From Schmidtea nova (lineage: Eukaryota), in the NCBI GenBank assembly GCA_044892505.1, contig CM097882.1:361522001-361585646 (forward strand): a DNA stretch of 63,646 bases, written 5' to 3'. Under the pieces are notes generated by a model. That model had not been told where the DNA came from and ran no database searches. It worked only from the letters and a program-made list of their open reading frames with translations. Both the position numbers and the translations under genes were made by a program. Of the stretch, positions 18,280 through 50,289 are shown in pieces. Positions within the stretch are counted from its first letter, which is position 1. Each line of letters opens with the position of its first letter.

Positions 18280-20099
18280 CAGAAGTTAATACAAATAATA
18301 CAAAGTAAAGACATAACTAAGAAGATCATTAACCTTCATTAAGTAAAATAATAAACGCAAGAGATTACAAGAACCAATATAGTACACATAAAAATAACAT
18401 TTTATAAGCCTATAAAGGTAGGGTAAATGTTGACAAACATACATCTCAAAAGAGAGCACATTATTTGATTGTAGGTCAAATTTACATACGAAACACCGCA
18501 AGCAAATTGAATGGAGAAAGCTAGTATTAAATACGAAAAAGTATTATCAAAGTATAAAAATAATACTAAAATAAAGAGAATAATTTAGTATAAAATAAAT
18601 AGTAAAAATCCTCATTAAAATCAGAAATATGATAAAATAAATTAAATTAGATTTCGTTGTTTTAATCAATCATTTAATACTCGCTAACGCTCAGGGTGGC
18701 ACGACAATGGACACATACATCGTGTTAGTAAGTAAATGAGAATAAATTAAATATTAACTGTAATTGGTTAATTATAAAATGAATCATTTAAAGTGTAGGT
18801 GTGGATCGAAAATCTAATATTTTCTGAATTTCTCTACGCATAATTCACATTGCGAGTATGAGAAATTCAGCACACCAAACATGAAACCCGACAGCCGAAT
18901 ACGTGGATGTAAACAAAAATTTAGTATAAATTCGACACTGAAATCATTAATTCAATTTCGTTCTTACCAGCCAAGAACACCTATTAAGCATAACTCTACG
19001 CAAATTTTGTGACTGATGCAAAATCAGTGAGTAATTTTTATGTATTTGTAACAGTAATTGTAAGTTCATTTATTTTGGAATAAATATTTTAAGCTGTTTT
19101 TTTTGCTTATCCTTTAATTGTCTATTTTGTGACTCAGATGATTCCTCATTTATGCAAACTGAACTTAGGTTTGAATTAGAGAAGAAACTTCAGTAGCTTG
19201 AAATAGCCATTGAAGTTTCTTTCCTATTTGATGATCTGAGTGTGGCAAGATGGTGGCATAGTTGTCAATTAAAATCAGTTAGGAAAGAAATCTGCAGTGA
19301 TTCGAAAAGAGTCAAGGTAAATTCCTTTCTTTGTAGAGATCATGGCAATGGGTCCTGCTCGCATCCATCGTTAACAGGATCGTACAATATTTTATATTAT
19401 ATACATCAACTTCTTGCGTATTTGGATAAAGGAAACTTTGATAATATTTTTATCCTCGTTGAAAGCCCGAATCCTAAATAGTGTAGTGATTTTAAATTAT
19501 GGGATCCGGAAATGATGTGGGATAAAATAAATCCAGGAAAATTTTGCCAGGAAAAAGATCCCTGAAAATATTTTTTAAAGGTCAACAGAAAGAAAACTTT
19601 TGGGATTTGAACAAAAAATTAAGGACATATCCCTTGTCGTGGGGTTTTTGTTCGGCGGGCATGTCGGAGTGTGTGTGGATTTGTGAGATAAAGCTTGCTG
19701 TCAAATAAAAGATTAGATTATCATTTCAATTAACAGATAACAATTTCAAGTGACAATTTTTATTTTGAATTAAAAATTTTACGCTAGATATTATTATGTG
19801 ATTTTCTAGAAATGTATGCATCGATAATTAGACGAACCTTGAGAGAGTGATTGTGTGCGTAAGACCTTCTATCAACAGCTATCCTATACCCTCTATCCGA
19901 AACGAGAATACAGTGAGATTTAGCTTTGGTAACGAAGCTCGACTGTCTATTGGTTTTCATACCACTGTATACATTACCAACAAAATTAAGAAAGAGTAAT
20001 TATGGGTACACAAGTGAGGTCATCGCCAGGAATCACGAAGGTGCCAAGGTTATTGTAACCGTAGAGACAATGCAATTAAAAACCACATATACGCTCACA
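18280..20099 (+). mobile_element. LTR-A copy 2 (diverged, with internal insertions)
   Basis: catctcaaaagagagcac..atttgattgtaggtcaaatttacatacgaaa block at about 18443-18495; tgcgtaagaccttctatc block at about 19856; end similar to the other copies. Confidence 0.55.
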
Positions 20100-21567: not shown

Positions 21568-21609
21568 CTAAAAAAATTAACACAACATATAAGTAGCGTA
21601 AATCAATAC

Positions 21610-23160: not shown

Positions 23161-23489
23161 TAATCAGAATGAACTTTTTCAAATCGAAAACTTAAAATTT
23201 CCATCAAGAAACATTTATTTACTTAAAAAATCAACTCAATTCAAAAAATTCCTTCTACATAACACAAAAAATCCAAGAACACACACAATAGAGCAATCAA
23301 ATACACCGTATAACACAGGATAACGATTTCTAGGATACTGGTTGGTGTTTATGTCAGTGATTTATTTATTATAGAGTAAGTAATTTTAATAATAATTATT
23401 TGATTAGTATTTTAACATAATTTTGTAGATATTTTTTTTTTTACACATACAGTAAGTATTTAATACTGTATACATTAACAGTCTGCATT

Positions 23490-23655
23490 TTCTACTATGT
23501 ACTGCCTTTTTGTGGTTTACGATTTTTTCTACATTTTTGTCTATCACAAAATAAAAGGTGTCATTGATTCCGATAACACACAGGTGAGTGTTTACAATTT
23601 CTATATTATAACTTAGTTTTAAAGAAGGTGGTATTCATCGTTATACGGTGTATAA
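23490..23655 (-). repeat. Second copy of the 1410-1850 dispersed repeat
   Basis: Shares ccgataacacacaggtgagtgttt and catcgttatacggtgta. Confidence 0.7.
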
Positions 23656-28466: not shown

Positions 28467-30070
28467 CAGTGGCGTTTCCTGGTTGTGCCTTCAAGGTATT
28501 ATGCTTAGGAATTTGAATACCCAAAATAATTAAAATAATAATAATAATTAATTAAGAAAATAATATTAGACAAACTATAATGTTTATGCTGATGAAAATT
28601 CGATTTTAAAAATATTCCAAAACTTTCCGTAATACGTACATCAATCTTTAAATTAAACAAAAACACTTTAACACTATAATCACTCCAAAGTTTACCATCA
28701 TTCTTTAAAAATGAAGTCCGCTCTTCTGGATTATTTCACGAATTTTGAAATCACATCATTGTGAAAGGATTCTTTCGCTTTTAAATCAAATATTAGATTT
28801 TTTGGATAATGTCCATTATCATGTCCATTACCTAGGTGGCAGATAATACCCATAACATTGAATTTAAAATTATTTATTTATAGATCTATTTATTGATTAA
28901 TTTAGAATAAAAACTATGAAAACTTCCAGAATATAGATGTTGCTTTCTGTGAGAAATATGACAGTATCTCAGGTTATTACCATTCTTCGCGCCAAAGAAT
29001 TACTGAAAAGAGCAATGAAATGTTCTTGTTGTGGTGAATTAATGGTAGAAAGAGAAAGAAAAGACAATATTGATGGTGTTTCTTGGGTTTGCTACAGCAA
29101 AGAATGCCCTAAAAAGAAAACCACAACAAGCATAAGAAATGGGTCTTTTTTCTCAGATTTTCGTTTATCACTAGCTGATGTATGGACTTTGGTGTTAATG
29201 TGGACCGAGTCTGTTCAGGTTTGTGATGCCGCCCACAGGTTTGGAATAAACAGGAAGTCTGTGAGTGCAGTATATGCAAAGCTTCGAGGGCTTGCATCGA
29301 AATATTTACTTACAGATCCTATAAGACTTGATGGGCCTGGTATTGTCTGTCAGATTGATGAAAGTCTCTTTTGCCACAAACAAAAGCATAATAGGGGAAG
29401 GGCAGCTGAGACTCAAAGCTGGGTGTTTGGGATAGCTGATACCAGCACAACCCCAGCAAAATATTATGTGGAAGTGGTGCCTGACAAATCTGCGAACACT
29501 CTCTTGCCAATAATTTCTAGAGTATGCCGCTCGGGACCAGTTATTTATAGTGATAAATAGGCAGCATACAAGAGAATAAATCAAAATTTGGGGCTTGTAC
29601 ACGAAACCATTAATCATTTTTTGAATTTTGTTGATCCTGATTCAGGTGTGCATACCCAAAATATAGAATCTCTATGGGCGCAGCTGAAAATGAAAATAAA
29701 GGCCATGAAGGGGATTCGTGGAAATCAACTTCCTCTTTTCTTAAATGAGCTTGTGTGGAAAAATAATGCACAAGCAAATATTTTAATTTATCTTGTTTGT
29801 GTGATGAAAACTCAATAAATCATGATTTGGTTTATTTATGTTTTCATAATTGAATAAAACTAATAGAATTCTTATTTATTATTATTTAGGTGGCAGATAA
29901 TACCCATGTATCTTGTAGGTGGCAAATAATGGACATGATCCGTATTTTCAATAGACATCAAGACTAACCCGTGAATACGTTCTTGTGACATTGTACTACA
30001 AGAATAACTTTTAATTCGTTTCAGTACTGAAAAACTTCGTCCTACCGGGACTGTAGTTGATGGCATTGAC
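28467..30070 (-). mobile_element. hAT (ZMYM1-type) transposase 3' remnant, split by the Merlin insertion
   Basis: cagtggcgt terminus at 28467. PSTTVPVGRSFSVLKRIKSYSCSTMSQERIHGLVLMSIEN lies on one side of Merlin, and DVISKFVK*SRRADFIFK continues on the other side. Confidence 0.7.
28804..29941 (+). mobile_element. Merlin/IS1016 (ISXO2-like) DNA transposon
   Basis: TIR ggataatgtccattat / ataatggacatgatcc. Transposase 28937-29818 with Zn finger CSCCG..WVC, QIDESLF, WVFG and HTQNIESLW; one in-frame TAG at 29558-29560. Confidence 0.9.
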
Positions 30071-32160: not shown

Positions 32161-33468
32161 TATTATTAATAATATGGAAATCATAGAATAATAACAGTAA
32201 TAATAATGTTTTAATATTTTTAATAATTTCTAATATTTATAGCATCAAATGATGATTATCGTAAAAACGTGTTTTATTGTTGTGACAAATTCCAAGGCTT
32301 GTTTAATGTTCTTCATTTCTTAAGCCCGACCACTACCTGAAATTTCGTCGCAGAAGATTGGAAGATGTCATCTCTCTGAGTAAGGGTTACAAGATAAATA
32401 AATCTATCTTCGTAGTTCCTAAACGGATTAGAAAGAGATTTACGAGTTGGTTGTATAGGAAAAGACGTTTTTTCTTATGCCTTCCCTCTAGATCAGTGGT
32501 GAACAAACTAAGGCCCGCCTAACAATTTTATGTGGCCCGGTAATGATTTGGATACAAGTCCGTTTTTGTTTATGATTGTCATGTTCTGATGTCCAAAACA
32601 AAACAAGAATTATGGGAAGTTAAGACTGAACTATCTTATTTCAAGCCAATGACAGGAATGTTTTAAAAAGTGGTTATAAAAACTATGTAACTCTACTCTA
32701 CAAGAAAAACAGGTGTGTTTTTAATAAAGTTTTCACTCCTGTTTTCTTATTAGTGAGGGTTCGATATAACAATATGGATAATTTATAACCAATAACACCT
32801 GGTCAGATAAAGAAGGATATTGAACCTAAGAGAAGATAATAAATGAGTTTTAAATTTTTAAAAATTGATTAAATAAACCTTTCTATTTAGGAAGGGCTTT
32901 AAAATATATAAAGAGTGGGAAGAGTAACAAACACGAATAAAATAAATAAAAGATTTAACATTTAAAAATCAAACCTGGGAGAAGCACCTCCAATGTCAAA
33001 CACGAGACGGGGTACAGCAGATATGATTATTGTTATCAATGTGCTTATGGGGCCCACTTAGCATATGACAGATACCAATGCCGCCCTCCGTTAAAAAAAG
33101 TTTTCCCACCTCTGATTTTGATAGTCCAGAACGAATATCGTAATACTTTACAACGCACACGAACGAATTAGGATCCTCTCAATACTAGGCATTGTTAAGG
33201 TGTGGGTCAAATCATATAAAATGGTGATTTCTTGGTAACAGCATTAATTAATTAATAAATAACAAAATAAGCCTTTGCTGGAAAATTTTTTATTAAGTGA
33301 AAATTTTCGATTATAAAATAATCCTTATCAGTCTCTAATTCAGAATATAACTGGAATCTTCTTCGTGTATTGCTGTTTCTTTTTTAAAGAAAATAATTAA
33401 TACCGATTATAATTTAGACATCATACATATTGGTATCATGATATATTGGAACCAAGCACAAATAAATC

Positions 33469-33955
33469 TTTGTTACGACTTTGCTTCCTCTAAATAATCT
33501 AGTTTGAGTGTCTTTTCCCATTCGTAAAAATGTTTCCATTCTTTAGATTAGAATCCAAAAATCTCACTAAGTCCTTCAATCGGTAGTAGCGACGGGCGGT
33601 GTGTACGAAGGACAGTGACGTAACCAGTGCAAGCTAGTGAATTGCGCTTACTAGGAATTGCTTGTTCATGTGAAATAATTACAATTCAACATTGCTCGAC
33701 TATTTTTAGTTAGAAAATTCGTGGTCCTGTCAATGTAGTGCGAGTGCGGTCCCGGACATCTAAGGGCGTTACAGACCTGTTATTGCTCTTTCATATTGCC
33801 GAACGCTATTTATCCTTCTAAGAAGTGACAATTTACAAAGATTTATATAAATTCACTATTTAGAAAGTCGGAGTCTCGTCCGTTAATGGAATTAACCTGA
33901 CAAATCGCCCCACGAACGGCCACGAACCAACCACCGAATTAGGACAGAGCTATCA
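33469..33955 (-). rRNA. 18S rRNA 3'-terminal fragment (pseudogene)
   Basis: Minus strand reads gatagctc..gatttgtcaggttaattcc..gagcaataacaggtctgt..cccttagatgtcc..gtacacaccgcccgtcgctactaccgattg..aaagtcgtaacaa, with many substitutions and deletions. Confidence 0.9.
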
Positions 33956-33958
33956 GGT

Positions 33959-34176
33959 AATCTTTTACTTTACCGGTCCCAAAATTATTAAGATAATATA
34001 TTATTAATATTATTAATAATATTATTATATTATATTATTTATTATTATTATTATTATATTATTAATATTATTAATTAATATTAATTAATATTATTATTAA
34101 TATTATTATGATATATTATTAATATTAAGAAATTAAGATAATATATTTCTATGTGTGACCGGTAAAGTAAAAGATT
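33959..34176. mobile_element. MITE-like insert with a perfect 20-bp TIR
   Basis: aatcttttactttaccggtc (33959-33978) and gaccggtaaagtaaaagatt (34157-34176) flank a nearly pure A/T interior. Confidence 0.75.
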
Positions 34177-34742
34177 TTAAAAATATAAAAAAATTATTAA
34201 TATTATATTATTAAATTATATTATTATTATTATTATATTATTATTATTATTATTATATTATTATTGTATTATTATTATATTATTAATATTATTAATTAAT
34301 ATTATTATAATATTATTATAATATTATTAATTAATAATATTATTAATTATTAATTAATAAACAGCAATATACGAAGAAGATTCCACATATATTCTGAATT
34401 AGAGATTGATATGGATTATTTTATAATCGAAATTGTTCACCTAATAAAAGATTTTGCAGCAAAGGCTTATTTTGTTATTTATTAATTATTTTATTACTTA
34501 ATATAAAACATTTATAATAATAATATTATTATTAATTAATGATAAATCTAATATAAAAGAAATTATTAAAATATATTAATAATCATAAAAATTTCCCTAA
34601 AGAGAGCTTATGCACAAATCGGACCAATAACCGTTAATATTTCAACGTAAATAATTATATTGGTTAATATAATTATTAAACAAAAAATATTTTTATTTTC
34701 GAATAAAATAATTTATCATTGGATATTTATAAAAATTATTAC

Positions 34743-35019
34743 ATTCACTCGCAGTTACTATTTTCCGCCAATCAACGCTGACATCCTTAAATAAACGCAA
34801 TTTAGCACTATTAAATAGCTGATTTGCTGCTCGTAAAGTTATCCAATTGCTTTTCCCGGATAGTGCATTTGATTTCATTGAATCGAGTACAATAAAAAAA
34901 CTAACAGGATCTTGTTCAATTAAAATATGTGTCAAGCGTCGCATATCTCTAATCTCATGAATTAACTGGCGACTTTGTCGACTTATCTGACTCCAAATTG
35001 GTTCAAAGTAAATCCTCAC
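34743..35019 (-). CDS. ERCC4: XPF/ERCC4 exon 2
   Basis: VRIYFEPIWSQISRQSRQLIHEIRDMRRL..QDPVSFF resembles human [23 protein letters not shown]; 41-nt intron 35020-35060. Confidence 0.9.
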
Positions 35020-35060
35020 CTATTTCCATTTATGACGATAAAACAGAGAATTTCAATTAC

Positions 35061-35816
35061 CGTTCGATCAAATAGATTTGTCATTGCATTTTCTACAGTC
35101 AACTCATCACTGTCAATGAAAACATTGAGAATTTTCAATTCATTTAGCAATTCCTTGATAATATCGAGCAGAGAGATCTGACACGATGTGCTGTGTTGAG
35201 TGATTTCCAGCATAATTTCATGGATGTTTGGCTTACAATTATTGAGAGTTGTAACAACACTCAAACTGAACCTGGGCCATAAATAGACTTCTCTAACGTG
35301 TAAATTCATCATCACACGATCTAATGTGGAAAATCCAGCACTTAAACCCAAAGGATTATCACTAAAAGCTTTAACAAAACCGTTTGGATTGCTTTCTTTG
35401 AATAGTCTTAACGCAAAAGCCTCTTGACACGCTTCAGTAACTTTGTGACCTTTGAACACCAAAACTCCTGAAACTAGAGCCCCAGGAATGCGCCCCATCA
35501 GATAATCAACTATCAATATCTGACTGGAAATGAAAATCAGACCCCCTCTTTTATATGTATTTTCATGAGTTTTAGTTAAACATTCAGCAGTTATATGAAT
35601 TGGATCATGAGGGACACTGTCCTGTTTTAGTTTCTCTACATAATACTTTGACTCTTCCATTGAGGCATTTATCACTAATACTAGTACATCCTCAATGCAG
35701 TAAAGCTTAAGAAAACTATAAATTATTTTTTCAATTCCCATTCCTTTTCCAGATATCAGAAACGTGTTACCATTATACATATCGATTATCATTTCATTTT
35801 CATAATCTAAGAGCAT
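35061..35816 (-). CDS. ERCC4: XPF/ERCC4 exon 1 (inactive SF2 helicase-like domain)
   Basis: MLLDYE..GGLIFISSQILIVDYL..CQEAFALRLFK..GFVKAFSDNP..LWPRF; ATG at 35816. Confidence 0.92.
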
Positions 35817-36140
35817 TTTATTTAATATTATTTTTGTAGAGTATAAATGATTCAAAATAAATCGTAAAATTCAATTGAAAATAAATAATTAACAATTGTC
35901 TTTAAAAATATGAATATTTAAACAATTACGTAAAATTTGATATTTATTTTTATTTTACGTAATATTATTATTTTAAGTAGTTTTTTTATGTATAAAGTAA
36001 TTTTTCATTCCTTTTTTTAATATTTTAATTATTTTTTGTTAATAGTTCTTTAAATAGAGATGATTGAAATATTTTTAATATTTTGATAAATGATTTGGAT
36101 TTACTTTGATACATGTCATAAATTTTCTTGACCATAAATG

Positions 36141-36609
36141 TGTTGAGCCCGTACCTTCCTCGCCTTGTTTAAATAAAACGATAATAAAAAAGGTGGCAAA
36201 GTATTCAAAAAGGATTCAAATATGAACCAAAATAATTAAGAATAATTAACGAAAACGACCAAAGTACAAATAAAGTACATAAAATTAGGAATCTAATAAT
36301 AACCCATGCAAAGTGTTGGGCTGATTGAAGAGAGGTTCAATTTTTGTTTAAATACCTCAAAAATTAAATGCATACAAAAAGAGGAGAGCTAAAAGCGCAC
36401 GATAACCTATAAGAGCATTAAACAGATAAATAGCATAAAAGCATACAGGATATTAAAGCATAAATACTTTAATAAGTCAGTCAAGTTAGGGAGAAAACGA
36501 TAAAAAGATGCATCTCAAAAGAGACCATGCAATTTGAGCGCAGGCCAAATTTACATACGAAAGACCACACAAAAATTGAATGGAGGAGATCATTGCTAGT
36601 AAAAAGTAT
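36141..36609 (+). mobile_element. LTR-A copy 3, 5' part
   Basis: Starts TGTTGAG and carries the catctcaaaagaga..aatttgagcgcaggccaaattt block. Breaks off at 36609 and resumes at 41885. Confidence 0.7.
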
Positions 36610-36961
36610 TGGTGGGTTGTTGATCGTCAATATGACCTTGACGTTACCATGGCTCGTATCAACAACTCAACATATAAAACATTGAAATAACCATCTTGTT
36701 GCCCGTCACTAAGTAACGTTGGTAATGCAACAAATGGGTGGGTATTCGCAATCAGTGAGCGTCGTCAATACGAAACTATGATTGACCGAATATCTCCTGG
36801 GTCCAAGGGCTACCGATAGAAGGTTTAATGCCCATTTTGTCCCTTTAAATTAACCGCTCTATCGTTGTGGATTTTCAATACGAGATCTCCATTTGAATAT
36901 TTTCGCTAAACCGTGATTCATTTATAAATCAATTAATTTATTTGATCTCTTTTATTTTTAT

Positions 36962-37615
36962 TTATATCAAACAAACAAATAGAAAAAGCATAATTGAAAA
37001 CTTATAATTGTAACATAAAACAACATTTATTACAGGATCAAATCTAATGTGCGTACTGGTCAAATCAATGTTGAAATCAATGATTTTCGAGGCCTCTACT
37101 ATCAACTGGCCCAGTACTCGCGCTTCTTGGCGACGCTTATTCCTGGCTCTTGCTCCTTTACTGGGCCTCCATCGCTTTGGCTTGGTTGGAGCTGCTGCTG
37201 CTGCGATTTCTTCCTCCACTCTCACCGGGAACAATTCCTGAGGTGGAGGCTGAGATTTCGGTAGTATGGCCGAGATGATGCCACTGTCTACCCTTAGTTT
37301 CTCATTCACGAGCTCCTGTTCTCGCATTGAAACTCGACACGCCCGCAATCTCATTGCGTCTTCGGAGGCTTGTTGAATGAGTAGTTGATTTTGCTTTTTT
37401 AATCGATCTACTGTTTCTTTGACGGACCATGTCGCTTCCATTTCCCGACAGCGGGCCCGAAATTTCTCCATTCGGCTAGTCATCAGCTGGAGTGCGTCCG
37501 CGTTGGACGATCCTTTGGCTTCCAGTTCGACCAAACGGGCGTCGACCTTCTTATTGTGCTTTGCATTTTCGAGCAATAACTTGTGCACTTCCTCAAGCTG
37601 TTGCATTGGATTCAT
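36962..37615 (-). CDS. Orphan coiled-coil protein with a basic (Arg/Lys) C-terminal patch, 217 aa
   Basis: Open ATG-TAA frame, visibly GC-richer than its flanks. Heptad-like N-terminal half, then PKRWRPSKGARARNKRRQEAR. No family recognised; the 3' end may be intronic. Confidence 0.6.
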   Translation of the reverse strand: MNPMQQLEEVHKLLLENAKHNKKVDARLVELEAKGSSNADALQLMTSRMEKFRARCREMEATWSVKETVDRLKKQNQLLIQQASEDAMRLRACRVSMREQELVNEKLRVDSGIISAILPKSQPPPQELFPVRVEEEIAAAAAPTKPKRWRPSKGARARNKRRQEARVLGQLIVEASKIIDFNIDLTSTHIRFDPVINVVLCYNYKFSIMLFLFVCLI

Positions 37616-38639
37616 TGCTAAAAGTATTCAAGCATTTTAATACATATCGAGAATGGTTAATGCACAATAATTACAACATTTATCATCATACGCGAAGATT
37701 TAATTAGTTCATTTGTTATTACAATAAGTTAAGGAGCTCTCACATAATCGATCGCGAGTTTTCCATGGGTATGCCTATCAAGCCTCAATTCGGGAATCGA
37801 AACGAAAGAATCTTTTATCAACACGTATTAGCTCTTTCTTATCTATGTCTAAATGCTTATTTATTTCAGAATTTCGATTTTTTCTTAGACCTTTTCTCTC
37901 ATTAAAATTCTGATGGAAATTCTATGAATCTTATTTTAAAATTTTTAAGAAATTTATCTTTAAATTTTCACCGAGGTATTAGCAACGGTATCAATATAAG
38001 CTACCTAAATATTGAGTAAATTTAATTTAATTATTATCTATTAATTCCCAACATTTTCTATATTTTCAGATTTTAAATTAAATTTCATTTTAATAAATTT
38101 AAATCGGATCAGGATACCCCTGAAAACAACGCTGTTCCCCCGTAAAAAAAGAAAACTATATAAACGAGTAAGCAAAATTCCTTGATTTCTATTGGGTAAT
38201 TTCTATTAAAACAATTTAAAGTTTATATTATAACTATTGATTTTAGATAGTTATTTTTAGGCAGGAGATTTCCCTCAAATCAACTGAATACACTGGTAAT
38301 TTATTCTATTTCGTTTATATAACAATATTTTCAGGACTTAAGCCTCAATATCAAGTTAACGAGTCAAGGGAAATTACCAGGGTAAAGATCTTCCACCAAA
38401 AGATAGCAGATCTCGAAATTTATTGTCTGAAAATTTTATGCAAAAGAAAAATTGAAGAGAATTCGAAATGCAGTTAGCAGAAGTGGTGATAAAATTTCAA
38501 TTCAATCAACAATGTCATTTCGTGGCTTTTCAAAATAAAATTTTTCTTCTATAACTACCTATTTCCTGATTGTGTGAATAAAAAGAAATTTCTCTTTTCC
38601 CTTGCCATAATACGACTTAACCCTTATTAGGAAATTTGG

Positions 38640-39540
38640 ATTACATTATTGAAATATATCTCCGTTCCAAATATTCAAATGAAGCAATCTGTCTCAGACT
38701 CCAGCACCGAGAACTCGATACTCTCCTCTTGGAAAATGGTCTTACACCTTGGTTCCAGAAGATTTTCCACGATCGATAATGGTTGGAATTTATACTTTAT
38801 TGGATCTAATTACAAGAAACTTCTAAAATAAACCATCTCTATTGTTAGTACATTATATTTAGTTTATTCTTATTTTAAGTTGTTATTTAATAAATTTTCT
38901 TAGATTAAGTTTATTCTTATTTCATTTTAAGTTGTTATTTAATAAATTTTTCTCCTTTTTATTTTACTTTTTCTCTCGTAATAGTGCTTGGGATTAGATT
39001 AGTGTATAAGTTTGGCGATTTATAACAACGCGTTTGCTTTAATTTTTAGAAGGATGGTTTGAATGTGGATGATGTGGGCGTTTTGAGTGCAAGTTTGTAG
39101 GTATATATACCCTGTTAGGTCTATTATGGATACCTGTCTGTGTGATCGTATGTGTTTGTGTGTTGATTAGAATGTTGGATGGAAAACGAATGATTTATTG
39201 ACGAGTGAGGTGAGGTAGAATGATTGAGTGTAATATTATTATAGGTTTGGCTGATTTTATTGTTATCGTGTTTGCGTGCGATTTTTAGGATGGGTGACTG
39301 AAAACGATTGAGTGCTTGTGAGTTTGACTGGATGTATGATGCCAACTAACATAACTGTGCAGATTTTCTGTATGGATTGTTTGGGTGTATGTTGCTAATG
39401 ACTGTTATTGAGTGATACGGTGAGGTCTATGTATATAGTAGTTTGAATAGATGTTGCTTGTGATATTAGTATGGATGATGTTATTGAGTGGTATGGGTGT
39501 TGTCACTTGCAAATAGGGTTCTGGGTGATTTTAGGGGGTA
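38640..39540 (-). mobile_element. Highly decayed Penelope-like RT/GIY-YIG remnant
   Basis: C/A-biased minus strand with YIDLTVSLNN, NLHSYVSW..HP and PILKIARKHDN, echoing PLE FLDLTI..YL...S.HP..SQ.LR..RIC motifs. Confidence 0.4.
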
Positions 39541-41119
39541 TTTTATAAATAATATAGACATGATATATAAATTAGTTTCTTTAAATTAAAATAATAATGT
39601 AAATTTTATAATTTCCAAATTAGACTAGTAATAGTAAATTAAAAATTTTTGTAATTTTTCAATTAAAATAATAATAATAAATTTTTATGATTTCTAAATT
39701 AAGATAGTAATAATAAATTTTTATAATTTTTAAATTAATAATAATAATAATAAAATTTTATTATTTCTAAAATAATAATAATAGTTTTTACCATTTCAAA
39801 TCTATGATTATATATCAGCTTAATAAAAATTTTATAGTAAAATTCTCAGCTTGAATTTTTTATATTATAAATATATATATAAAATTTAAGATTTTTTCTT
39901 TAATTTACATTTCTTGGAATTATCATAGGAAATAATATTTTATAACAGTTTTATAATATTTCACAATTACAATTATATTAAAATTTTTCTAATATTGAAG
40001 ATTTGAAGTTTAAATTTTTTGCAATTCTTTTTCTGGATCCTTTCAGTTATTTGATAGAATTTTTTATAAAATCAAATAAATAATTTTTATGCTAAAATCA
40101 AGTACCTAAAACTAAACTTGCCACAAAATGTAAAATTTAAAATTGTCGTAACTAAAATAAGATAAAATTCATATAAAAGATTTAAATTATCTAATAATAT
40201 TCTTCGTCAAAATTTCCCACAGGGTTCGAATTTTTTACCTAAAAATTCATAAAAATCATAATCTTTCCATTAACAATTCGTCGCTCCTTTACCTAGTTCA
40301 TTATTTAATAAATGGTTTTTGATTGAGCTGTTTTATTGTTTTCAGATTCCACACATGATGAATTCTAATAAGACGAAAAAGTATCTGTGAAGGCGAAGGT
40401 GAGTGCGAGTCTATTATATTTAGTAATGTAGTGCCTATTTTAGATCTCAAGACATGAGCTGGATGAATTTATGTTATGTACGAATTGCTTATGTAATGTA
40501 GTATAAATATTCTATTATATTATAATAAAGATCATTAATATAAAAAATCCTTGCTCTTGGCCATACCACGATTCCCCAGTTGGGATGACGTGATTATGGA
40601 TGTATGAGCCTCACCTTAAAGTGGACAAATGGGCTGGCCGATTACCAATCAGACAACGATCCACCCAGGCTACTAACAAATCCGCACAACGCAAGGCTGG
40701 ACGAATCGTCAGAAGATATGGGAATAAAAAAAAATTTATTTTCCGTATATTTATTTATATAAATGCTTAGATGAAATTTTAATTATATTGGGAATTTGTG
40801 AATAATAGTAAGATCAACAAAAAAAAATTTTAAACTGAATTGAATAACATATGAATTAAATATTTTAATAATATCATAATAAAATATTAGCATTACATAA
40901 TCAATAAAAATAAAATAATGAATACCATATCAATTAACAAAGTGCGAGGAATGGGATGATCGTCAGGCATGATGATTGACGATCCCAAACCCCAACAATA
41001 AAAAAAATTAATCCTTACATTCGCCAACTCCGGAAAAGATCTTCGAATTCGCACCAAAATCTTTTTATAGAATAGTCGATTTTATCTTCTTCTTCCTTAA
41101 TTCTTTTCCTAGAAATTCA

Positions 41120-41201
41120 AAATTCTGCTCCAAAGAATTTTCTCCACGGAATAAATTAACAAATTCTACTCCAAAGGATTTTCTCCACGAAATAAATTAA
41201 C
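41120..41201. repeat. Two tandem copies of a 41-bp unit
   Basis: aaattctgctccaaagaattttctccacggaataaattaac followed by aaattctactccaaaggattttctccacgaaataaattaac. Confidence 0.85.
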
Positions 41202-41884
41202 AAGTTCAAAAAAATAACAAATTCTCTGGAAAGTTTTTTAAAAAATTTCTTACAACAAATTCTGATTATTGCCATTTTGATGGCGGTATATATACCATCG
41301 ATTTTGCGTTATCTTCACTAGTGCAGTAAAACAATTTGTTCTAGAATGTTCTTTTTAATTTTTCTAAATTAATTCTAATGATTTTCCGAAAATTAAATCC
41401 ATATTTTGTGTAATAATTTTTTATAAACCACAAATAATTTATTTTAATTCAAAATTTTTATTTTTGAATCGAAATTTGTTCGATTTGATTTAATTTACGA
41501 TATTTCGATCAATATTAGTTCTTTTTATTATTAAATGTGAAATTTTGTGATAAAATCTCAATTTTAATTTTTCTGCACGGATGGTTTATGACAAAATTCT
41601 GTTCTTTATGGACATTTTCAATGGGTTTTCAGCCTATTTCTAACTTTCAAACGTTCTTCCTTTGACGACTTTTAATTTTTCTCGAGGTTTCCATGTAAGG
41701 ACTTGCAGATTCACAGCTAGCGCGTACTCTACTGGTTAATGTGTTTGAGTCCACTTTATCTTTTGGTGTTTCTCGCTTAATCACTTTTGGTTTTTAATGA
41801 AGGTTTGGGTTAAGCTTGAATCTTGCGCGTTCTCTACTTATGGGTTACTGCTTTATTAAAACAATTTGCAGTTTTTGCCCAACA

Positions 41885-44119
41885 GTATGATCATAAAATA
41901 AAATTGGTATTATAATGAAGGTAAAAATTTATTAAAAATTATGTAAGAAATCTCCATTAAAATATCGTAAAAATAACAGAGACTGGGATGAAAATAGAAT
42001 TGAAATTAAATTTGATTGTTTTAATCATTCAATTTATTGGGTTCTGGGGTTGTTGGTGAAGTGGTAAAAGTTACCAAATATCTGACTCCGAAGCGTGCCT
42101 TTAATTGACCCCAATTCACAATTCCAATGACACAAATTTTATTTTATTATTACAATGATTTACACAATCCAAAATATCACGATCAATTCAATACCTCTTT
42201 CGACAATTATACGAGCCTATTACGACACTTCGTGAAATATAGCTCAATTGTAAAATGTCTAGAAAATAACAACTACTAACCACTGACTTGGATTAAATAC
42301 TGGTAATTGGTTTCGATCGTTTCCGCGCGTTGACTTTATTCTTCAGTCAATATTCTTTTGCCTTTTAACTTCTCGTCTGCTTGGCTTCCTTTGTATTTGC
42401 AACACAATTTCTATTTCTGCAACTGATTGAATCAACAAATTTCTTTTTGTATATCAAATTTCTCCTTTCGTATTTTAAACTCGTTTCGTATTTTCCACGT
42501 CAATTTTCAATTTACCTCTGGTTCAGATTTCAATCTTTTTTTTGTCAATTTCAAATTCTCCACTAAATCTTGTCTATCGCAATTTTTCTCTCCCACAACT
42601 TCTGTCGAAAGTTTTGTCTAAAATTCTTTTCTAAAATTCTTTCTAAAATATTCTGACTGCTTCTGCTGTCTCTCTCCTTTTATATCTCGTCAAATTTTAT
42701 GGCACTAGAGATAATTTTGTTTTTTGCATTTTAATTTCCGGCCATCTCGTGTTTCTCCCCAATTGCTGTTTTTTCTATGACAGCTGTATAGATTATTTTG
42801 AATTTCCCTTTTTTTCCTTTTTGAGCCGTCTTTTATCCGCTCTCCTGTTATCTGACAAGCTGTCAGAATTTTATTTTACAATTTGTTTTTGTTTTCGTTT
42901 TGAAAATTCCTTTCGCGTTTTTGTATTTATTAAATAGGAATGACCTTTGTTTTTGATCTCTTGTTTAATCCCTTTTGTTTGTTCCCAACTTCTCATCTTT
43001 CATTTCTTTTTATTTCCGTTTCTTTTTTCGTGTTCCCATTGACCATCTCCTTTGTCATGACGATTTTCCCACAGGTAATTTTATTATTTTTATATTATTT
43101 TGTATTTTAGGTATCCTCAACAAATTGACGCGCGCAAAAAGTTATACATACATTGTTTAATAGAATTAAAAAATAAATATTTAGAAAATAAATAAAATAA
43201 ATTATAAAATATTAAATTTACAGAAAATAAATAAATAACCATTTATTAAAATAATTAATTTAAATATTAAAATAAATATGAATTAAATTTTAAATATTCT
43301 TGTTTAAAGAAACACAATGCGTTGGTGTCACAAAAAACAGTATAAATAGAAGCTGAAATACTATAGCTTTTAACTAGAACTAGAACTAAACTTTAACTTT
43401 AACATTAACTTCTACTTTTGCGGACGAACGTTTTGTTTTTTGATATTCATTCTACCAGCCAGCACCAGTGTCAATTGAATTTGTTCAGTTTTTTTGGAAT
43501 GATACACTTCGTAGTTTTCTATGTTTTATTTTGTTATTAATGTTATATGTTTTTGTAATCATTAAGTTTGATTTTGTAATTAATAATAAATATTTTTATA
43601 TCATAATTTTGTTTGCTCTTGCTCTGTTCAAATAGTTTTTTCCGACTAAACTGATTTCGTAAAGAGATCATGTTAGCTACCAAGTCGCAGATTTCAGAAG
43701 TGTCTGATCTTCATTCTCGCAGAGGTGGAATGTTGAGGCGGCATCACTGAACTTGATTTATATAGATCGACTGGTGTAAAAGAAAACTAAGAAAGTACAG
43801 GGGCTTGTCATCCAGATATTTTTTGGGGGAAATAGATGGAAAAATTCATAAATTTAGAGGATCACTTAGAGTATAAGGTAATGATGTGCGTAAGTCCTTC
43901 TTTCGGCAGCAGGATTCCGAAAGAGAGGACACAATGAGGAGTAGTTTTGTCAACGAATCTCACATGCTCACTGGATTCTCACCACCGTATACATTACTAG
44001 CATAGTTTACCAAGGAGTAACTATGAGTAAACGAGTGAGGTAGTATTAACAATATTCATGATGGTGAGTGGGTTGCCATATACACTGACAATAAAATTTT
44101 AACAGCCCATACACCAACA
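41885..44119 (+). mobile_element. LTR-A copy 3, 3' part (interrupted by solo LTR-B1)
   Basis: Matches copy 1 from about 2420 onward; TATA gtataaata near 43340; tgcgtaagtccttctttcggcag block near 43887; ends catacaccaaca. Confidence 0.7.
42035..43122 (-). mobile_element. Solo LTR 'LTR-B1'
   Basis: TATTGGG...CTCAACA termini, 4-bp TSD AATT, homologous to 46049-46908; TATAAAAG on the minus strand. Confidence 0.75.
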
Positions 44120-44964: not shown

Positions 44965-47000
44965 TGTTGGTGTATGAGTTGTTAAATTTTGTAGTTGCTA
45001 AGCATTACTGTAACCAACACACTTTTATGAAAATGCTAAATATTATGACTCATGTACCCATAGTTACTCTTTCGTAAATATGTTGGTAATGTACATGGTG
45101 GTATGAAAATTCAATGAACAGGTGAGTTTTGTTGCCAAAACTACTCATTGTATTCTCTCTTACGGGTTCCTACTGCCGATAGAAGGTATTACGCACATGA
45201 TTACTTTCTATTTCACAGGTCCTTACTTATCAAATTATATCTCTCTATAATGTTGCTTTATTCTATCTAGCGTCTACATACTTTTATCCTTCCTTAGCGA
45301 GTACAAAAAGCATCCTACACACAATGATTCTCTCCAAAATTACTGTGGCATTTCTTCTATATTTTCAAAATTTTTGTTAAATATACTAATTATGCTTCGC
45401 AATTTTTGGACAAGGTCTACTTATATTTCTTAATCCGATCTTCTCCATACTTTGATTACTATGTTTCTCCCTATATTTAGAGCTGGGTATGTCCACAAGA
45501 CTTTTGTCAAGAATGTTCCACGTACTTGAGACTCACAAAGTCATTGAGATGCCTCGGAGATTCGGTTTTATTCAATTAAAACCATTTGAATGAGAGTGTC
45601 TGAATACGAAATAAAACAAAATTATACATTCAAAATATTTATTATACATTACAAATGAACCTTTAATTACTAATTACACAAAACATAAAATATACTTGTC
45701 TGTTCCTGTTTACAATTTAACAATAAGAATGTTCCGATACAACAATGTTGGCTGGTTGTATGATTAGAAAAATTCACAACCATTCGTCTGCAAAAGTAAA
45801 TATTAAGTTATGCTTTTAAAACGTCTATCTATACTAAATTTTGAAACGCAAACACATTCTCTCACCAAAATTATGACTAACTAGATTTTAACTGTGCATG
45901 CTTCAATAATTTATTTTACAATTTATTAGATAATATTAATTTTTAATTAACTTTATTTATTTTCCTAACTAATTCTATTTAATTTGCTAAAATGATGTGT
46001 GTGTCCATCGTGTCGTTGTATTAGGTGATATAACGCGTTTATTGATTGTGTTGGGTTATTAGTTGTTGGAGAAATTTAAAATTTGCTAATTAATTCTCTG
46101 ACTTTAAAGCGTGCTTTATCTGATCCACAAAACAACAATTTTCAGATGATATAAACATTTATTGATTATCAGTTGATTACATAATTTACAATTCAACACC
46201 AGAATAGGCAAATATGAGTGAGGAATAGCCCTAATGTATAATACCTAGAATACAACAATCACTGACCACTGATTTAGATTCAATAATTGACAATTGATTT
46301 CGGTTGTTTTCGTGCTTTAACTTGATACTTTATTGACTCTTTTCTAATTCTTGTTTACTTCGTTCACTTGATCTTCTAAATACAAGTTCTCTAATAATGT
46401 AACTCTAATTTATCCAAGCTATAAATTTTTCAAAATCTAAACTTCTCAATCTAATCTTCTGATTCAACTACTGTGGCTTTCCCTTTTATAGTTCGTCATT
46501 TTCTGGCTCTCAAGATAAATTTTATTTTCCCGTTCTTGACTCATGCATACTTCACATTTTTCTCCTAGCTCCCACATTATCTTTGACATTTGTCAAGATA
46601 TGCCGGTTATTCCGTTTTTTTGTCTGTATTCCTGATATCTCTGAAAAGCTGTCAAGATATTATTATTTTTTATTTTTTTTTCAAATTTTGGAATTCCTTT
46701 CTGTTTTTGTACTTGTTAATTATTAATGACTTTTTCTTGCTTTGTATTTTGATTTCTTTTATTTTGTAAATATTTCCTCATTTCTCAATTTTTTACTCTT
46801 CCGTCTTCTTCTCCAAGTTCCAAAGGATCGTTTCATTTACCCCCCCCCCCCCAATTATTTTATTTATTTATGACGTTATTTAATTTTATTATTTAGGTAT
46901 CATCAACAATTGATTAAAACAATCAAATTTAAATTATTTCTATTTTCATTCTTATCTCTGTGATTTTAACGACATTTTAATGGGGATTTTTCCATAAATT
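44965..47000 (-). mobile_element. LTR-A copy 4 (inverted; interrupted by solo LTR-B2)
   Basis: Reverse-complement end tgttggtgtatg at 44965; reverse-complement tgcgtaataccttctatcggcag block near 45175-45197; reverse complement of the aatccccatt..tttgattgttttaat block at 46913-47000. Confidence 0.7.
46049..46908 (-). mobile_element. Solo LTR 'LTR-B2'
   Basis: TGTTGGG...ATCAACA termini, 4-bp TSD ATTG (46045-46048 and 46909-46912). Confidence 0.85.
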
Positions 47001-50000
47001 TTAATAAATTGCACAAATATATCGGATTGCATTGTGTTTTTCTATTTTACGTGATATTTTATTTTCCTACTAAAATTCAGTCTGTGTTACTAATCAATCA
47101 ACTTTTCGTTAAAAAATAAAATAAAAAAATCTCAAGCGCTATGTGAATATGATGTTTGTACCATAGCAGGATCTAATTCTATGGTAACCAAATAACTACT
47201 GTCTGACCAATAGTTACCCGTCGTAAGAAACTTTGGAAATATAACTAATGTGTAAAATACTCGAAAAAAGCGAGCACTGTTACCAAAACTGTAATTGATC
47301 GAATAATGTCTATAGGTTCAGGAGCTGTCAATAGAAGATATGTGTGCATTTCGATGTTCGGTCCCTTTCTTTCACTTTAATGCTTTAACTTTCTATAGTT
47401 TATTTGTACTTCTGTTTTAACCTGAGAAACTGTGAAAATACATATTGATTTGAATGTAACTATTTCGACTTTATCAGTTATAAAAAATAATGTATTAGAT
47501 GCTAATCTAGCTTAATGTTAAATAGTTACCTACAATATTTTCTACTGTTAATTCATTAAATTTCAAAACATTTTATTTATAACGTCATATTCATATTAAA
47601 TTTAGCCTGTAAGTCACATAACGCCTGGAAGCCATTTTAAGCAAGATTTTTACTTGAAGTTCCAAAAATCTGAATTGGAACGTTTGTCCTAATGTACAGA
47701 CTTTTTTTCTTAGTGTGTGAAAGGCTTCTTAAATTGACATTGTTATTATCTTCCTGAAATTTTCATACCAAAAATTATTGATTTTGTAGACGTGTATTCC
47801 TTTTCACACGATGAACAACTAAAATTGTGAACTTGCTATGTATTGTCATCACATCTGTTAAATAAATCTATCCGGACGATCTGCTCTGGTTGATCATCCC
47901 ACATTAGATAGATCAACACTATATAGAAGTTATGCTCTGTTAAACAGATGAGTTTGATTGGTTATTTTTAAAGCATTTTAATGATTTTTCTATATCTTAG
48001 CTATGCCTATGGTTGGTTTGGTAATCGATTATTGTGTTTAATGTTTCATTGATTTACACATTTTGCTTTTAGTCTTATGTTGGTATTAAAATTTTGTTTT
48101 CTTTTAGCTTGGAATATTGATTCCATGTTTTATTGGATGTTTATTCTATTGTATTTCAAAATCTGTTTAAAGCTTTGTTATAATAAAAAGTTTAATTTTA
48201 AGTTATTTTGATTTTTATAAAATTTAACAGATAATAATAAGTTAATAATGTTGAATTTTTCGCACTATTCCTTAGGAATTAAGCTTCTAAAATGATAAGC
48301 GAGCTCTAACTTATTCATAAGATATTATTCCTTTAAAATTCTGAGGACTTGTTACTTCATTTTCTTGGCTATATGATAATTTTGAAATATAATTGCACCT
48401 ATCTTTGCTAATCGCTTCACATGACTTTGTATGGTTTCCATTCTTAATATAATATGTCAATTGTTGGATCAGGATCTTACTATTAGATTGTTTCAACACA
48501 TGTTCTATTTGTTGTAGATCTTGAAGTAATTGCTTCGTTCTCACTTTTACATCTCTATCATATCTTTATCATTCATTGTTGACATAATTTCACAAATTTT
48601 ATAGCCATGCATGTCCTCATATTGAAATATAATGTATAAATTCTGATATTTAGACGAAGAATTAACTAGAACAAAGACAAAATAACTTCCACTTAATGAT
48701 AAAATATTTAATATAAAATTCCTGCCGATAATCCTCTGGTCATTCTCTCACATCGACGTGAGTATGAGGCTAGGTTTGGATATTGCATCAACATCATTGG
48801 GTTAAAGAGTCCACTCTAAACTCATGAACCCACACTGACGTATCTGCATCGCAACAAGCTGAGATACCACCACGAGTTATCGACTTGGAAGGCCAAGAAG
48901 AATAAAATAAAAAGATAAAAATTAATGTTAATGCACCTAGAAAAATGCACGTTTGAAAAATCTTTATTTTCCCATGAAATAGCAGATAATAAATAACCGG
49001 TATATGGATCAGTGCCAAATAAAAATAACTAGGATGAGCAAAGTTTAAAACTGAAATAATTTGTATGCACAGAATGACGCCGTCTCTCCAAAATTTTGAA
49101 CAGCGATGGACCTCAAAAATTCTGTTTCTCAAGTGTAGAGAGTTGTCCTTCTTTTTTAGTAAGCTATTTTCAAAATTTACAGAAAGAACGTTTATTCTTT
49201 GTGAAAGTTTCACAAATCCTCAAAAGAGTGTTACTTTTTTATGAAAATTGCATCTATATTTACACTATTTTCATAGCATTTAATTAAATTGAAGCAGTAA
49301 AACAAATCTTTCTGGAATGCTCTTTCTGCTTAAATTTAATTTTATTTAAAAAGAAATATTTTATTTTTAATAAAATAAATTTATATTTATACATAACATC
49401 TTTATTCTTTACTTTAATAAATTTTATTTTTATCAGAATTTTATATTTTATATAAATTTTAACTACTTTATTTTAATTTTTACGATGTACTTTTACATTT
49501 TTTTTATTTATGCTATGAAAATTAAGACAATTAATTATAAAATCATTGAATTTTTATATTTACCTTATTCTTTAATGAGTTTTTTGTTAATTTTTTTGTT
49601 AGGGTTTTTTCAAGGTTACTTCTTGCTCTTGTTCAATTTAAATTTCACCTTTGTTTTAAGTAGGTAGATGTGCCAGATCTGAACCACTACCCCTGTGTGT
49701 ATATGACATAATCGCTCGGACTTTACATAACAAACATGATCATGTAATCATTACATAATGCTAGAGTTTTACATAGTACATAGGTTATTACGTAACAATT
49801 CTCGGGCTTTTCCTCAACACACGAGCTATGGCATCATAATAGCGTAATCGTGATCAATGGTCAATGTCGTTTCGGGGTCGAGGTCATTGTGTAATCGGAG
49901 TCAAAGGTCAAGGTCATTTTTTTGTTTTATTTTTAAATTTTTGGTGCAATTTTTTAATTTAACCACCGTTTTGTTTAATTAAAGTAAATTAATAAATTTT

Positions 50001-50289
50001 TAGAGCAATTTACAAAGGTTTTATAGTTTTAAATATTTTTTTTATAATTATTTTTTATTACAATTAATATTTTATAAGTATAATTATTTTATTTAATATT
50101 ATTTTTCATAATTATTTTTATTACAATTACAATTTATAATTTTTTTATAATTTTTTTTACAATTATTACTTAAATTATCCAATGTAAAATTATTACAATT
50201 ATTATTATTACAATTATTTTTATTACAATTATTATTATTATTATTAATATTATTATTAATATTATTATTATTATTATTATAAATTGGAT

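What the first reader, a model, noticed from the sequence alone, without database searches (positions are those of the whole stretch)
36610..41884. 5.3-kb TG...CA cargo element with a 4-bp TSD that splits LTR-A and encodes no transposase
Seen: LTR-A copy 3 stops at 36609 and resumes at 41885, with GTAT duplicated. The insert begins TGGTGGGTT and ends GCCCAACA. Its left end also matches, in inverted orientation, a second internal terminus ending CCCCAACA at 40997: about 35 bp of similarity (gatcgtcaat...tgacg), plus shared cctgggt and gcccattt.gtcc.ctttaa blocks further in. The cargo is an orphan ORF, a PLE relic and tandem repeats. Established: TGT...ACA ends, long TIRs and 4-bp TSDs typify Gypsy-integrase-derived Ginger/TDD DNA transposons and LTR elements. 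Inference: a non-autonomous or composite element mobilised in trans. It is the third TG(T/G)TGGG..CAACA element to land in LTR-A in this window.
Basis: partly seen in the sequence, partly recalled or inferred. Interest (0 to 1): 0.7.

Follow-up and report, generated by a model that had tools for sequence, protein, structure and literature searches.

The report
Oversized solo LTR with nested inserts
The 5.3-kb insertion is real, but it looks like the leftover single terminal repeat of a retrotransposon, swollen by internal sequence and holding one intact, unexplained small gene, rather than a new kind of cut-and-paste cargo transposon.

Summary
The insertion is confirmed. Both GTAT copies map onto the single GTAT of uninterrupted LTR-A copy 2, a paralogous empty site. 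The Ginger/TDD reading fails: the ends share only 6 of 7 inverted bases, against 40-270-bp TIRs in Ginger.

Read on the minus strand, the element is polarised like one LTR. From 41884 it runs: TGTTGGG, an A-rich 5' part, TATA plus initiator (41294), a long interior, an AATAAA cluster, then a 3' block homologous to the LTR-A 3' ends (z 5-12). A diverged relative at about 47130-49819 carries both ends (z 18.5 and 6.0) around an unrelated interior. The 40997 match is real only over the last 41 bp and has no target duplication.

The orphan ORF (217 aa) is intact and has one distant unnamed homologue (E 1.7e-4). No transposase was found, and Pfam does not support the PLE relic.

Best reading (0.55): a Gypsy-type solo LTR. 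Whether its interior travelled with it or arrived later is unresolved. It is a new member of a known kind; the in-LTR gene and the repeated targeting of LTR-A are the open points.

The parts
36314..36609 (+). LTR-A copy 3, 5' piece (target), begins TGTTGGG
   Evidence: 206 of 280 aligned bases identical to copy 1
36606..36609 (.). Left TSD copy GTAT
   Evidence: maps to 18541-18544 of LTR-A copy 2
36610..36616 (-). 3' att-like end (reads CCCACCA on the sense strand; 6 of 7 to the YNYAACA consensus)
   Evidence: consensus from PMC3601003 passages
36610..36890 (-). U5-like 3' block, homologous to LTR-A 3' ends and to 47139-47368; ends in a hairpin
   Evidence: z 5.1-12.1 against 4 of 4 LTR-A copies, z 18.5 against 47139-47368; profile of four LTR-A ends finds it at E 2.1e-4; hairpin z -2.8, 1 of 200 shuffles
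36937..36962 (-). Three AATAAA signals, the first overlapping the ORF stop codon
   Evidence: function inferred
36962..37615 (-). Intact 217-aa ORF: predicted long helices (probable coiled coil), Pro/Ala linker, Arg/Lys-rich helix
   Evidence: 0 of 1000 local shuffles give a frame this long, GC3 0.51; homologue P0001 at E 1.7e-4, 34-36% identity; model pLDDT 67, pTM 0.29
37618..37625 (-). Splice-acceptor-like site just before the ATG; candidate donors at 41018 and 37743
   Evidence: sequence only; splicing inferred
38047..38053 (.). Unpaired CCCAACA; possible 5' end of a 1444-bp minus-strand unit, no TSD partner
   Evidence: about 1.4 expected by chance on the + strand of the window
38054..38999 (.). 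AT-rich interior, unassigned
   Evidence: no Pfam family
39000..39540 (.).
   Evidence: composition; no relevant Pfam family
39580..39800 (.). AT-rich minisatellite, similar to arrays near 34000-34600, 50100-50290 and 58370-58480
40930..40997 (+). Second 3'-type terminus (CCCCAACA) with hairpin; its partner end could not be fixed
   Evidence: 33 of 41 to the left end, 2 of 2000 shuffles; ATAA|TG candidates at 38776 and 39594 are no more than AT-rich chance would give (my estimate about 3)
41260..41295 (-). TATA box and TCAGAA initiator-like site, shared with the inserts at 42035-43122 and 46049-46908
   Evidence: downstream 36 of 46 identical to 42595-42640, 0 of 500 shuffles
41296..41884 (-). 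U3-like A-rich 5' part starting TGTTGGG (7 of 7 to the TGTTRNR consensus)
   Evidence: first 400 nt are 44% A, as in 5 other units (44-51%); homologous to 49173-49653, z 6.0
41885..41888 (.). Right TSD copy GTAT
41885..42034 (+). LTR-A copy 3 resumes
   Evidence: 122 of 147 identical to copy 1
18541..18544 (+). Paralogous empty site: single GTAT in LTR-A copy 2
47127..49819 (-). Diverged relative carrying both end regions in the same order and orientation; its 3' terminus and TSD are missing and its interior is unrelated

Best explanation
36610-41884 is one long terminal repeat lying on the minus strand: a solo LTR of a Gypsy-type (Metaviridae-like) retrotransposon family related to LTR-A. Steps: (1) An integrase joined TG..CA ends into the 5' part of LTR-A copy 3 and duplicated GTAT (shown as TSD plus paralogous empty site; the enzyme is inferred). 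(2) What integrated was a full-length two-LTR element whose coding body was later lost by LTR-LTR recombination, leaving one LTR and no enzyme genes (inferred; no full-length member was seen). (3) The LTR's own promoter at 41294 points into the interior, and its poly(A) signals at about 36950 close a transcript that can splice onto the 217-aa ORF (motifs shown; transcription inferred). (4) The interior between about 38050 and 40997 is a patchwork that includes the 3' end of an oppositely oriented LTR-type relative. It either inserted afterwards or was already part of an enlarged LTR; these data cannot decide. The ORF product is most likely an oligomerising, nucleic-acid-binding accessory protein of a mobile element (helical N-terminal half plus a basic motif conserved in P0001). 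That function is inference, at about 0.4.
For: TSD and empty paralogue. The inverted match at the ends is 6 of 7 bases and nothing beyond (703 of 1000 shuffles over 60 bp and 366 of 500 over 300 bp score as well). That fits the roughly 7-bp LTR SIR consensus TGTTRNR..YNYAACA (PMC3601003 passages). The order att, A-rich part, TATA/initiator, AATAAA, conserved 3' block, att is the LTR layout in that paper. The left end is homologous to all 4 LTR-A 3' ends. The strict TATA..TCAGAA motif occurs 4 times in the window, 3 of them in these elements on their sense strand, against 0.42 in shuffles. The relative at 47127-49819 pairs the same two ends; only 2 of 68 window comparisons exceed z 4, and they are the two end regions. 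No PPT-like site and one weak PBS-like site were found inside. The neighbouring units have 4-bp TSDs and no PBS or PPT, as solos would. LTRs of 1.9-6.5 kb are known in Ogre (PMC6431247 passage). The host carries Gypsy-like integrase, protease and gag relics (all below curated cutoffs).
Against: No member with gag-pol between two such repeats is in the window, so 'LTR' rests on anatomy alone, and that holds for LTR-A too. The strict promoter motif was tightened after seeing it. The looser pattern gives 20 hits against 8.5 in shuffles, many in TA microsatellites, and it misses LTR-A copy 1. The right-end match to 49173-49653 is AT-rich (287 of 451), and the terminal 100 bp alone are not significant (60 of 1000). 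The relative lacks its 3' terminus, a TSD and the ORF. The promoter side resembles the 42035 insert while the 3' block does not (z -0.8), which hints at a chimera. An intact ORF next to unrecognisably decayed interior sequence does not fit a simple story in which everything inserted later. A 217-aa ORF between promoter and poly(A) site is not a standard LTR feature.
Confidence: 0.55

Rival explanations
1. Chimeric or internally deleted LTR retroelement. The 5' part (41884 to about 40998) comes from one LTR and 38053-36610 is a second, 1444-bp LTR-type unit carrying the ORF. They were joined by template switching or recombination, and the ORF is an ORF3-like accessory gene expressed by splicing.
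For: 38053 reads TGTTGGG on the minus strand and gives a unit of LTR-A length (1444 versus 1462 bp) with its own candidate donor at 37743. The promoter side matches the 42035 insert while the 3' block matches LTR-A. ORF3s are typically expressed from spliced messages (PMC5408684 passage).
Against: The two supposed LTRs are unrelated (27 of 100 and 32 of 100 shuffles score as well). 38053 has no TSD partner. About 1.4 CCCAACA are expected by chance on the + strand. Its first 400 nt are less A-skewed (A 0.39, T 0.33) than the other 5' ends. The relative at 47127-49819 shows the same pairing of ends, so the pairing recurs.
Confidence: 0.2
2. One reading: a non-autonomous or composite Ginger/TDD-like DNA transposon that carries cargo and is cut and pasted by an integrase-like transposase in trans.
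For: 4-bp TSD, TG..CA ends and no enzyme. Conserved ends around a variable interior in two relatives. The left end matches 40997 in inverted orientation at 33 of 41. An intact ORF beside decayed sequence fits carriage of pre-decayed cargo.
Against: Ginger1 has 40-270-bp TIRs and CCGG/CCGT TSDs; Ginger2 has about 50-180-bp TIRs and prefers RTATAY (PMC2836005 passages). Here the inverted match is 6 of 7 bases, the TSDs are GTAT, AATT and ATTG, and 36610-40997 has no TSD. The inner blocks are not significant. The ends are asymmetric in an LTR-like way.
Confidence: 0.15
3. Coincidence: unrelated fragments lie between two pieces of LTR-A, and GTAT on both sides is chance.
For: The interior is a patchwork and no second full copy lies in the window.
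Against: Both GTAT copies map to one GTAT in the uninterrupted paralogue. att-like motifs lie exactly at both junctions. A relative shares both ends.
Confidence: 0.03

Closest known systems
Solo LTRs of animal Metaviridae (Ty3/Gypsy), with the LTR anatomy of Benachenhou et al. 2013 (PMC3601003, passages read)
   Same: About 7-bp TGTTRNR..YNYAACA ends, TATA/initiator, AATAAA, better conserved 3' portion, no enzyme, short TSD
   Different: 5.3 kb long, with an intact ORF between promoter and poly(A) signals and a patchwork interior; no gag-pol-bearing partner seen, so the clade is unassigned
Ogre giant LTRs (PMC6431247, passages read)
   Same: LTR length of 1.9-6.5 kb brackets 5.3 kb; extra ORFs of unknown function
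   Different: Ogre is a plant lineage and its extra ORFs lie in the internal region; no sequence link was tested
Ginger1 and Ginger2/TDD DNA transposons (PMC2836005, passages read)
   Same: TG..CA termini and a 4-bp TSD
   Different: No 40-270-bp TIR, no integrase-like transposase, TSD not CCGG/CCGT and site not RTATAY; ends are asymmetric
MMTV sag, an ORF inside an LTR (PMC9412291, passage read); bdelloid ORF3s (PMC5408684, passages read)
   Same: An accessory ORF in or next to an LTR; spliced expression for ORF3s
   Different: sag lies in U3 and ORF3 lies between pol and the 3' LTR; this ORF lies downstream of the promoter and abuts the poly(A) signal; no sequence similarity found

Membership tests
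Ginger1 DNA transposon | TIRs of about 40-270 bp | tested here: not met
   6 of 7 terminal bases, nothing beyond
Ginger1 DNA transposon | CCGG or CCGT/ACGG 4-bp TSD | tested here: not met
   TSD is GTAT; definition
Ginger1 DNA transposon | Gypsy-integrase-like transposase in the family | tested here: inconclusive
   none in the insert; other family members not available
Ginger2/TDD DNA transposon | TIRs of about 50-180 bp or more | tested here: not met
   the 33-of-41 match involves 40997, which has no TSD
Ginger2/TDD DNA transposon | 4-5-bp TSD with 5' TGTNR termini | tested here: met
   4-bp TSD; the 41884 end reads TGTTG; the 36610 end reads TGGTG, one mismatch
Ginger2/TDD DNA transposon | Preference for RTATAY target | tested here: not met
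   site context AAGTATGA; single site, and a preference is not absolute
Gypsy/Metaviridae solo LTR | Short inverted repeats TGTTRNR..YNYAACA | tested here: met
   7 of 7 and 6 of 7
Gypsy/Metaviridae solo LTR | TSD flanking a single repeat, no PBS or PPT alongside | tested here: met
Gypsy/Metaviridae solo LTR | Promoter followed by AATAAA on one strand | tested here: met
   TATA 41294, initiator-like 41265, AATAAA 36962/36956/36942; motifs only, and AATAAA is common in this AT-rich DNA (21 in the insert)
Gypsy/Metaviridae solo LTR | Same repeat found as a direct pair around gag-pol with PBS and PPT | not testable with these tools
   needs the host genome; none in the window
Gypsy/Metaviridae solo LTR | RT/integrase phylogeny placing it in Gypsy rather than BEL or Copia | not testable with these tools
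   no linked pol; the 4-bp TSD favours Gypsy from recalled knowledge only
Non-autonomous two-LTR element (LARD/TRIM; definition recalled) | Two near-identical direct LTRs with PBS and PPT | tested here: not met
   no direct repeat pair; no PPT-like site
Penelope-like element (interior relic) | RT and GIY-YIG homology | tested here: inconclusive
   no relevant Pfam family in the frames scanned; decayed relics can escape Pfam; no PLE library was available

The most novel reading that the evidence does not exclude
The whole 5.3 kb is the native LTR of an animal retrotransposon lineage whose LTR is itself a spliced, one-gene transcription unit. It encodes a previously undescribed helical, arginine-rich protein family (with P0001), carries captured sequence from copy to copy, and belongs to a set of related families that integrate site-selectively into the 5' part of LTR-A.
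Probability: 0.15. Interest if true: 0.65.

Novelty: new member of a known kind. Interest (0 to 1): 0.3.

Why it matters
As a solo LTR with nested debris it is ordinary, and it mainly corrects the annotation: one polarised LTR-type unit, not a TIR transposon. Two things would matter if they hold genome-wide. First, an intact protein-coding gene between an LTR's promoter and poly(A) site means every solo LTR would be a self-contained expressed gene, and the protein family is undescribed in the libraries searched. Second, two related elements hit different LTR-A copies within 1-5 bp of the same position in opposite relative orientation, which suggests an integrase that targets another element's LTR. 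Caution: a reported bias of LTR elements for LTR targets in maize was later judged a small-sample artefact (PMC2774510 passage), and here n is 2-3.

Tried and rejected
Long TIRs between 36610 and 41884: none.

Element 36610-40997: no TSD; inner blocks at chance level; none of 7 profiles of family ends finds the 40997 terminus itself. The best was a hit at 40910-40983 with E 7.6.

Direct LTR pair 41884-40998 against 38053-37167: no similarity.

Left boundary of the inner element: 2 exact ATAA|TG candidates and 16 near-TGTTGG starts were listed, none convincing.

Known RNA family in the insert or in the conserved 3' block: Rfam gave 6 matches in the window, none there. A consensus fold of 6 copies was weak on both strands (-4.0 and -2.7 kcal/mol), so a ribozyme or tRNA-like element is unsupported.

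ORF relatives: the word-based search gave 0 of 345 candidates and the longer-protein search 0 of 7998. The P0001 search returned only itself among 92 candidates. Pfam gave 2 sub-cutoff coiled-coil matches, PDB none, PHROGs and NCBIfam none. The ESM Atlas best score was 0.87 with recognition 1552, which is uninformative. There is no second ORF copy in the window. The cluster membership and names of the ORF and P0001 stayed unchecked.

No fold search or complex prediction was run, because the model is low-confidence helices (pTM 0.29).

Interior of the 47127-49819 relative: no Pfam family in 12 of 12 frames. Interiors of 8 units: only 1 of 28 pairs was clearly similar.

A literature search on a guessed host species gave 3 papers, none useful; the host is not identified. 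Searches for in-LTR ORFs, LTR-targeted insertion and giant LTRs found the MMTV, maize, bdelloid and Ogre/Burro precedents but no description of this arrangement. The library lacks most subscription journals and Repbase, so this is weak evidence of absence.
Full report
Context. The window is AT-rich (about 29% GC). It carries a SET/FYRN/FYRC gene and a tektin exon, so it is most likely from a ciliated eukaryote, probably an invertebrate animal (inference). The host was not identified. LTR-A is a repeat of about 1.46 kb with four copies: 2102-3563, 18215 to about 20099, 36314-44119 (interrupted twice) and 44965-47010 on the minus strand.

The insertion is real. LTR-A copy 3 stops at 36609 and resumes at 41885. 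I aligned the two flanks separately to the uninterrupted copy 2. Both GTAT copies fall on its single GTAT at 18541-18544. Against copy 1 the two copies map 10 bp apart, which is an indel in that copy. A chance 4-mer match is about 0.0075.

The ends are not long TIRs. 36610 and 41884 share 6 of the first 7 bases in inverted orientation and nothing beyond; 703 of 1000 shuffles score as well over 60 bp. In the passages I read of the Ginger paper (PMC2836005), Ginger1 has 40-270-bp TIRs with CCGG/CCGT TSDs and Ginger2 has about 50-180-bp TIRs with an RTATAY preference. Neither is met. The passages read of PMC3601003 give the LTR end consensus as about 7 bp, TGTTRNR..YNYAACA. The insert read on the minus strand fits it at 7 of 7 and 6 of 7.

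The two ends are different and polarised. A profile built only from the four LTR-A 3' ends finds 36872-36717 on the minus strand at E 2.1e-4, and at E 7.3e-12 when the 47120-47420 copy is added. Pairwise, the left 300 bp score z 12.1, 5.1, 10.7 and 10.4 against LTR-A copies 1-4 and z 18.5 against 47139-47368, each 0 of 300 shuffles. They score z 2.5 (7 of 300) against the 40997 end, and -0.8 and -0.4 against the two other inserts. The right end is A-rich on the minus strand like five other 5' ends. It has a TATA box at 41294 followed by TCAGAA, as do the inserts at 42035-43122 and 46049-46908. The strict motif has 4 hits in the window against 0.42 in 100 shuffles, but I tightened it after seeing it. 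The loose form has 20 hits against 8.5 and misses LTR-A copy 1. Three AATAAA signals lie just before the 3' block; AATAAA is common here (21 in the insert). The order is att, A-rich part, promoter, interior, poly(A) signal, conserved 3' block, att. That is the layout of a single LTR.

A relative pairs the same ends. 36626-36875 matches 47143-47401, and 41202-41664 matches 49173-49653 (287 of 451, 0 of 100 shuffles), collinear to a TGTTG terminus at 49819. Of 68 sliding comparisons of the insert with 47000-50000, only 2 exceed z 4, and they are these two regions. Against this: the terminal 100 bp alone are not significant (60 of 1000), the match is AT-rich, and the relative has lost its 3' terminus and TSD. 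Its interior is unrelated and lacks the ORF.

The 40997 terminus. The match to the left end is real but short: 33 of 41, 2 of 2000 shuffles, best of 3660 windows. Both ends form a hairpin (1 of 200 and 11 of 200 shuffles), which inflates the match; the same-strand comparison also gives z 3.5. The inner blocks are at chance level (257 of 2000). 36610-40997 has no TSD. I read 40997 as the 3' end of a related, oppositely oriented unit inside the element. Its other end could not be fixed: the two ATAA|TG candidates are no more than AT-rich DNA would give.

The ORF. 37615-36962 on the minus strand encodes 217 aa. None of 1000 local shuffles gave a frame that long. Its GC3 is 0.51 against 0.29-0.42 for three other coding frames in the window. 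A search of 1.84 billion representatives gave one hit, P0001 (157 aa, E 1.7e-4). It is 34% identical over 134 columns and shares the basic motif near the C-terminus. P0001 is unnamed and lies on a 638-bp contig. Pfam, PDB, PHROGs, NCBIfam and the ESM Atlas gave nothing usable. The model is long helices with a disordered linker (pTM 0.29). An acceptor-like site precedes the ATG and the stop overlaps the first AATAAA, so the ORF is placed to use the element's own signals. The last 20 or so codons run into AT-rich sequence that P0001 does not cover. My best guess is an oligomerising nucleic-acid-binding accessory protein; this is inference.

The rest of the interior. No transposase, integrase, RT or endonuclease family appears in the six frames of the insert, so 'encodes no transposase' holds. 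The PLE relic is not supported by Pfam. By eye 39000-39540 on the minus strand resembles PLE RT motifs, which is recall and was not tested.

Mechanism. Shown: one integration with a 4-bp TSD, LTR-type asymmetric ends, family relatives, and an intact ORF. Inferred: an integrase made it; the integrated form had two such repeats around a coding body; recombination left one. Open: whether the interior arrived later or was already part of an enlarged LTR. LTRs of 1.9-6.5 kb exist in Ogre (PMC6431247 passage), and an ORF inside an LTR exists in MMTV U3 (PMC9412291 passage). The chief rival is a chimera of two LTR-type units joined near 38053. It is weakened by the missing TSD there and by the recurring pairing of ends in the relative.

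Targeting. The other two are 72% identical to each other and have perfect TSDs AATT and ATTG. They map to copy-1 positions 2558-2561 and 2553-2556 (or 2557-2560, given a 4-bp indel), in opposite orientation relative to their LTR-A hosts. They are therefore independent hits within 1-5 bp. LTR-A covers about 11% of the remaining window, but such inserts are easiest to spot when they split a known repeat. A similar claim in maize was later judged a small-sample artefact (PMC2774510 passage).

Literature basis. For PMC2836005, PMC3601003, PMC5408684, PMC2774510, PMC9412291 and PMC6431247 I saw term-matched passages only, no whole texts and no supplements. All other papers were seen only as search listings. 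Searches found no description of this arrangement; Repbase and most subscription journals were not covered. The association of 4-bp TSDs with Gypsy clades, the LARD/TRIM definition and the XPF and calmodulin labels are recalled, not from a call.

Verdict. Observation largely confirmed, interpretation redirected. It works like, and probably is, a solo LTR of a Gypsy-type family (0.55); it is not a member of Ginger1 or Ginger2 by their TIR definition. Novelty: new member of a known kind. Interest 0.3. Most novel reading: probability 0.15, interest 0.65 if true.

Noticed in passing
window 42035-43122 and 46049-46908: Two related LTR-type units (72% identical, perfect TSDs AATT and ATTG, shared TATA..TCAGAA) sit within 1-5 bp of the same position in different LTR-A copies, in opposite relative orientation: possible site-selective integration.
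   Followed up: partly
window 47127-49819: Diverged relative of the insert with both end regions; it abuts the truncated 5' side of LTR-A copy 4 at 47010, lacks its 3' terminus, and has a 141-codon stop-free frame at 48794-49219 without a Pfam match.
   Followed up: partly
window 3335-3500, 19850-20020, 43882-44040, 45040-45198, 36690-36846, 47200-47350: A block of about 160 bp is conserved among six units while the sequence upstream of it is not; it holds an internal CCAACA-like motif about 100 bp from the end. No Rfam match and no convincing consensus structure.
   Followed up: partly
window 33243-34600: Two SSU rRNA fragments (33470-33598 and 33754-33979, minus strand) lie inside an inverted repeat (33243-33402 and 34341-34494, 87%) beside an AT-rich minisatellite.
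   Followed up: no
window 12050-14424: Decayed Gypsy-like pol (Integrase_H2C2 E 4e-5, rve E 0.0044) between short direct repeats unrelated to LTR-A.
   Followed up: partly
window 14450-16840 (minus): Gag-like open frame of 273 codons (Gag_p24_C E 3.8e-4) followed by a broken aspartyl protease (E 0.0018); no LTR linked to it.
   Followed up: partly
window 28937-29560: ISXO2/IS1595-like transposase frame (E 2.1e-6), as in Merlin elements (label recalled).
   Followed up: no
window 5724-10277 (minus): Single open frame of 1517 codons with ePHD, FYRN, FYRC and SET domains, an MLL3/4-type histone methyltransferase by recalled architecture.
   Followed up: no
window 35016-35870, 34693-35019 and 21577-21948 (minus): Exon-like frames that look like one XPF-type gene split by an intron of about 12 kb full of repeats; the label is recalled and Pfam gave no hit for 35019-35870.
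   Followed up: no
window 58234-58359 and 59862-59967: A 126-bp palindrome with a partial second copy; its sub-threshold mir-31 Rfam match (37 bits against a cutoff of 51) is probably just the hairpin.
   Followed up: no
window 25098 and 54013-54515: Further TGTTGGG starts; neither shows significant similarity to the family ends and 54013-54515 has no TSD.
   Followed up: partly
window 1401-1584 and 23484-23652: A 185-bp dispersed repeat pair at 76% identity, unassigned.
   Followed up: no
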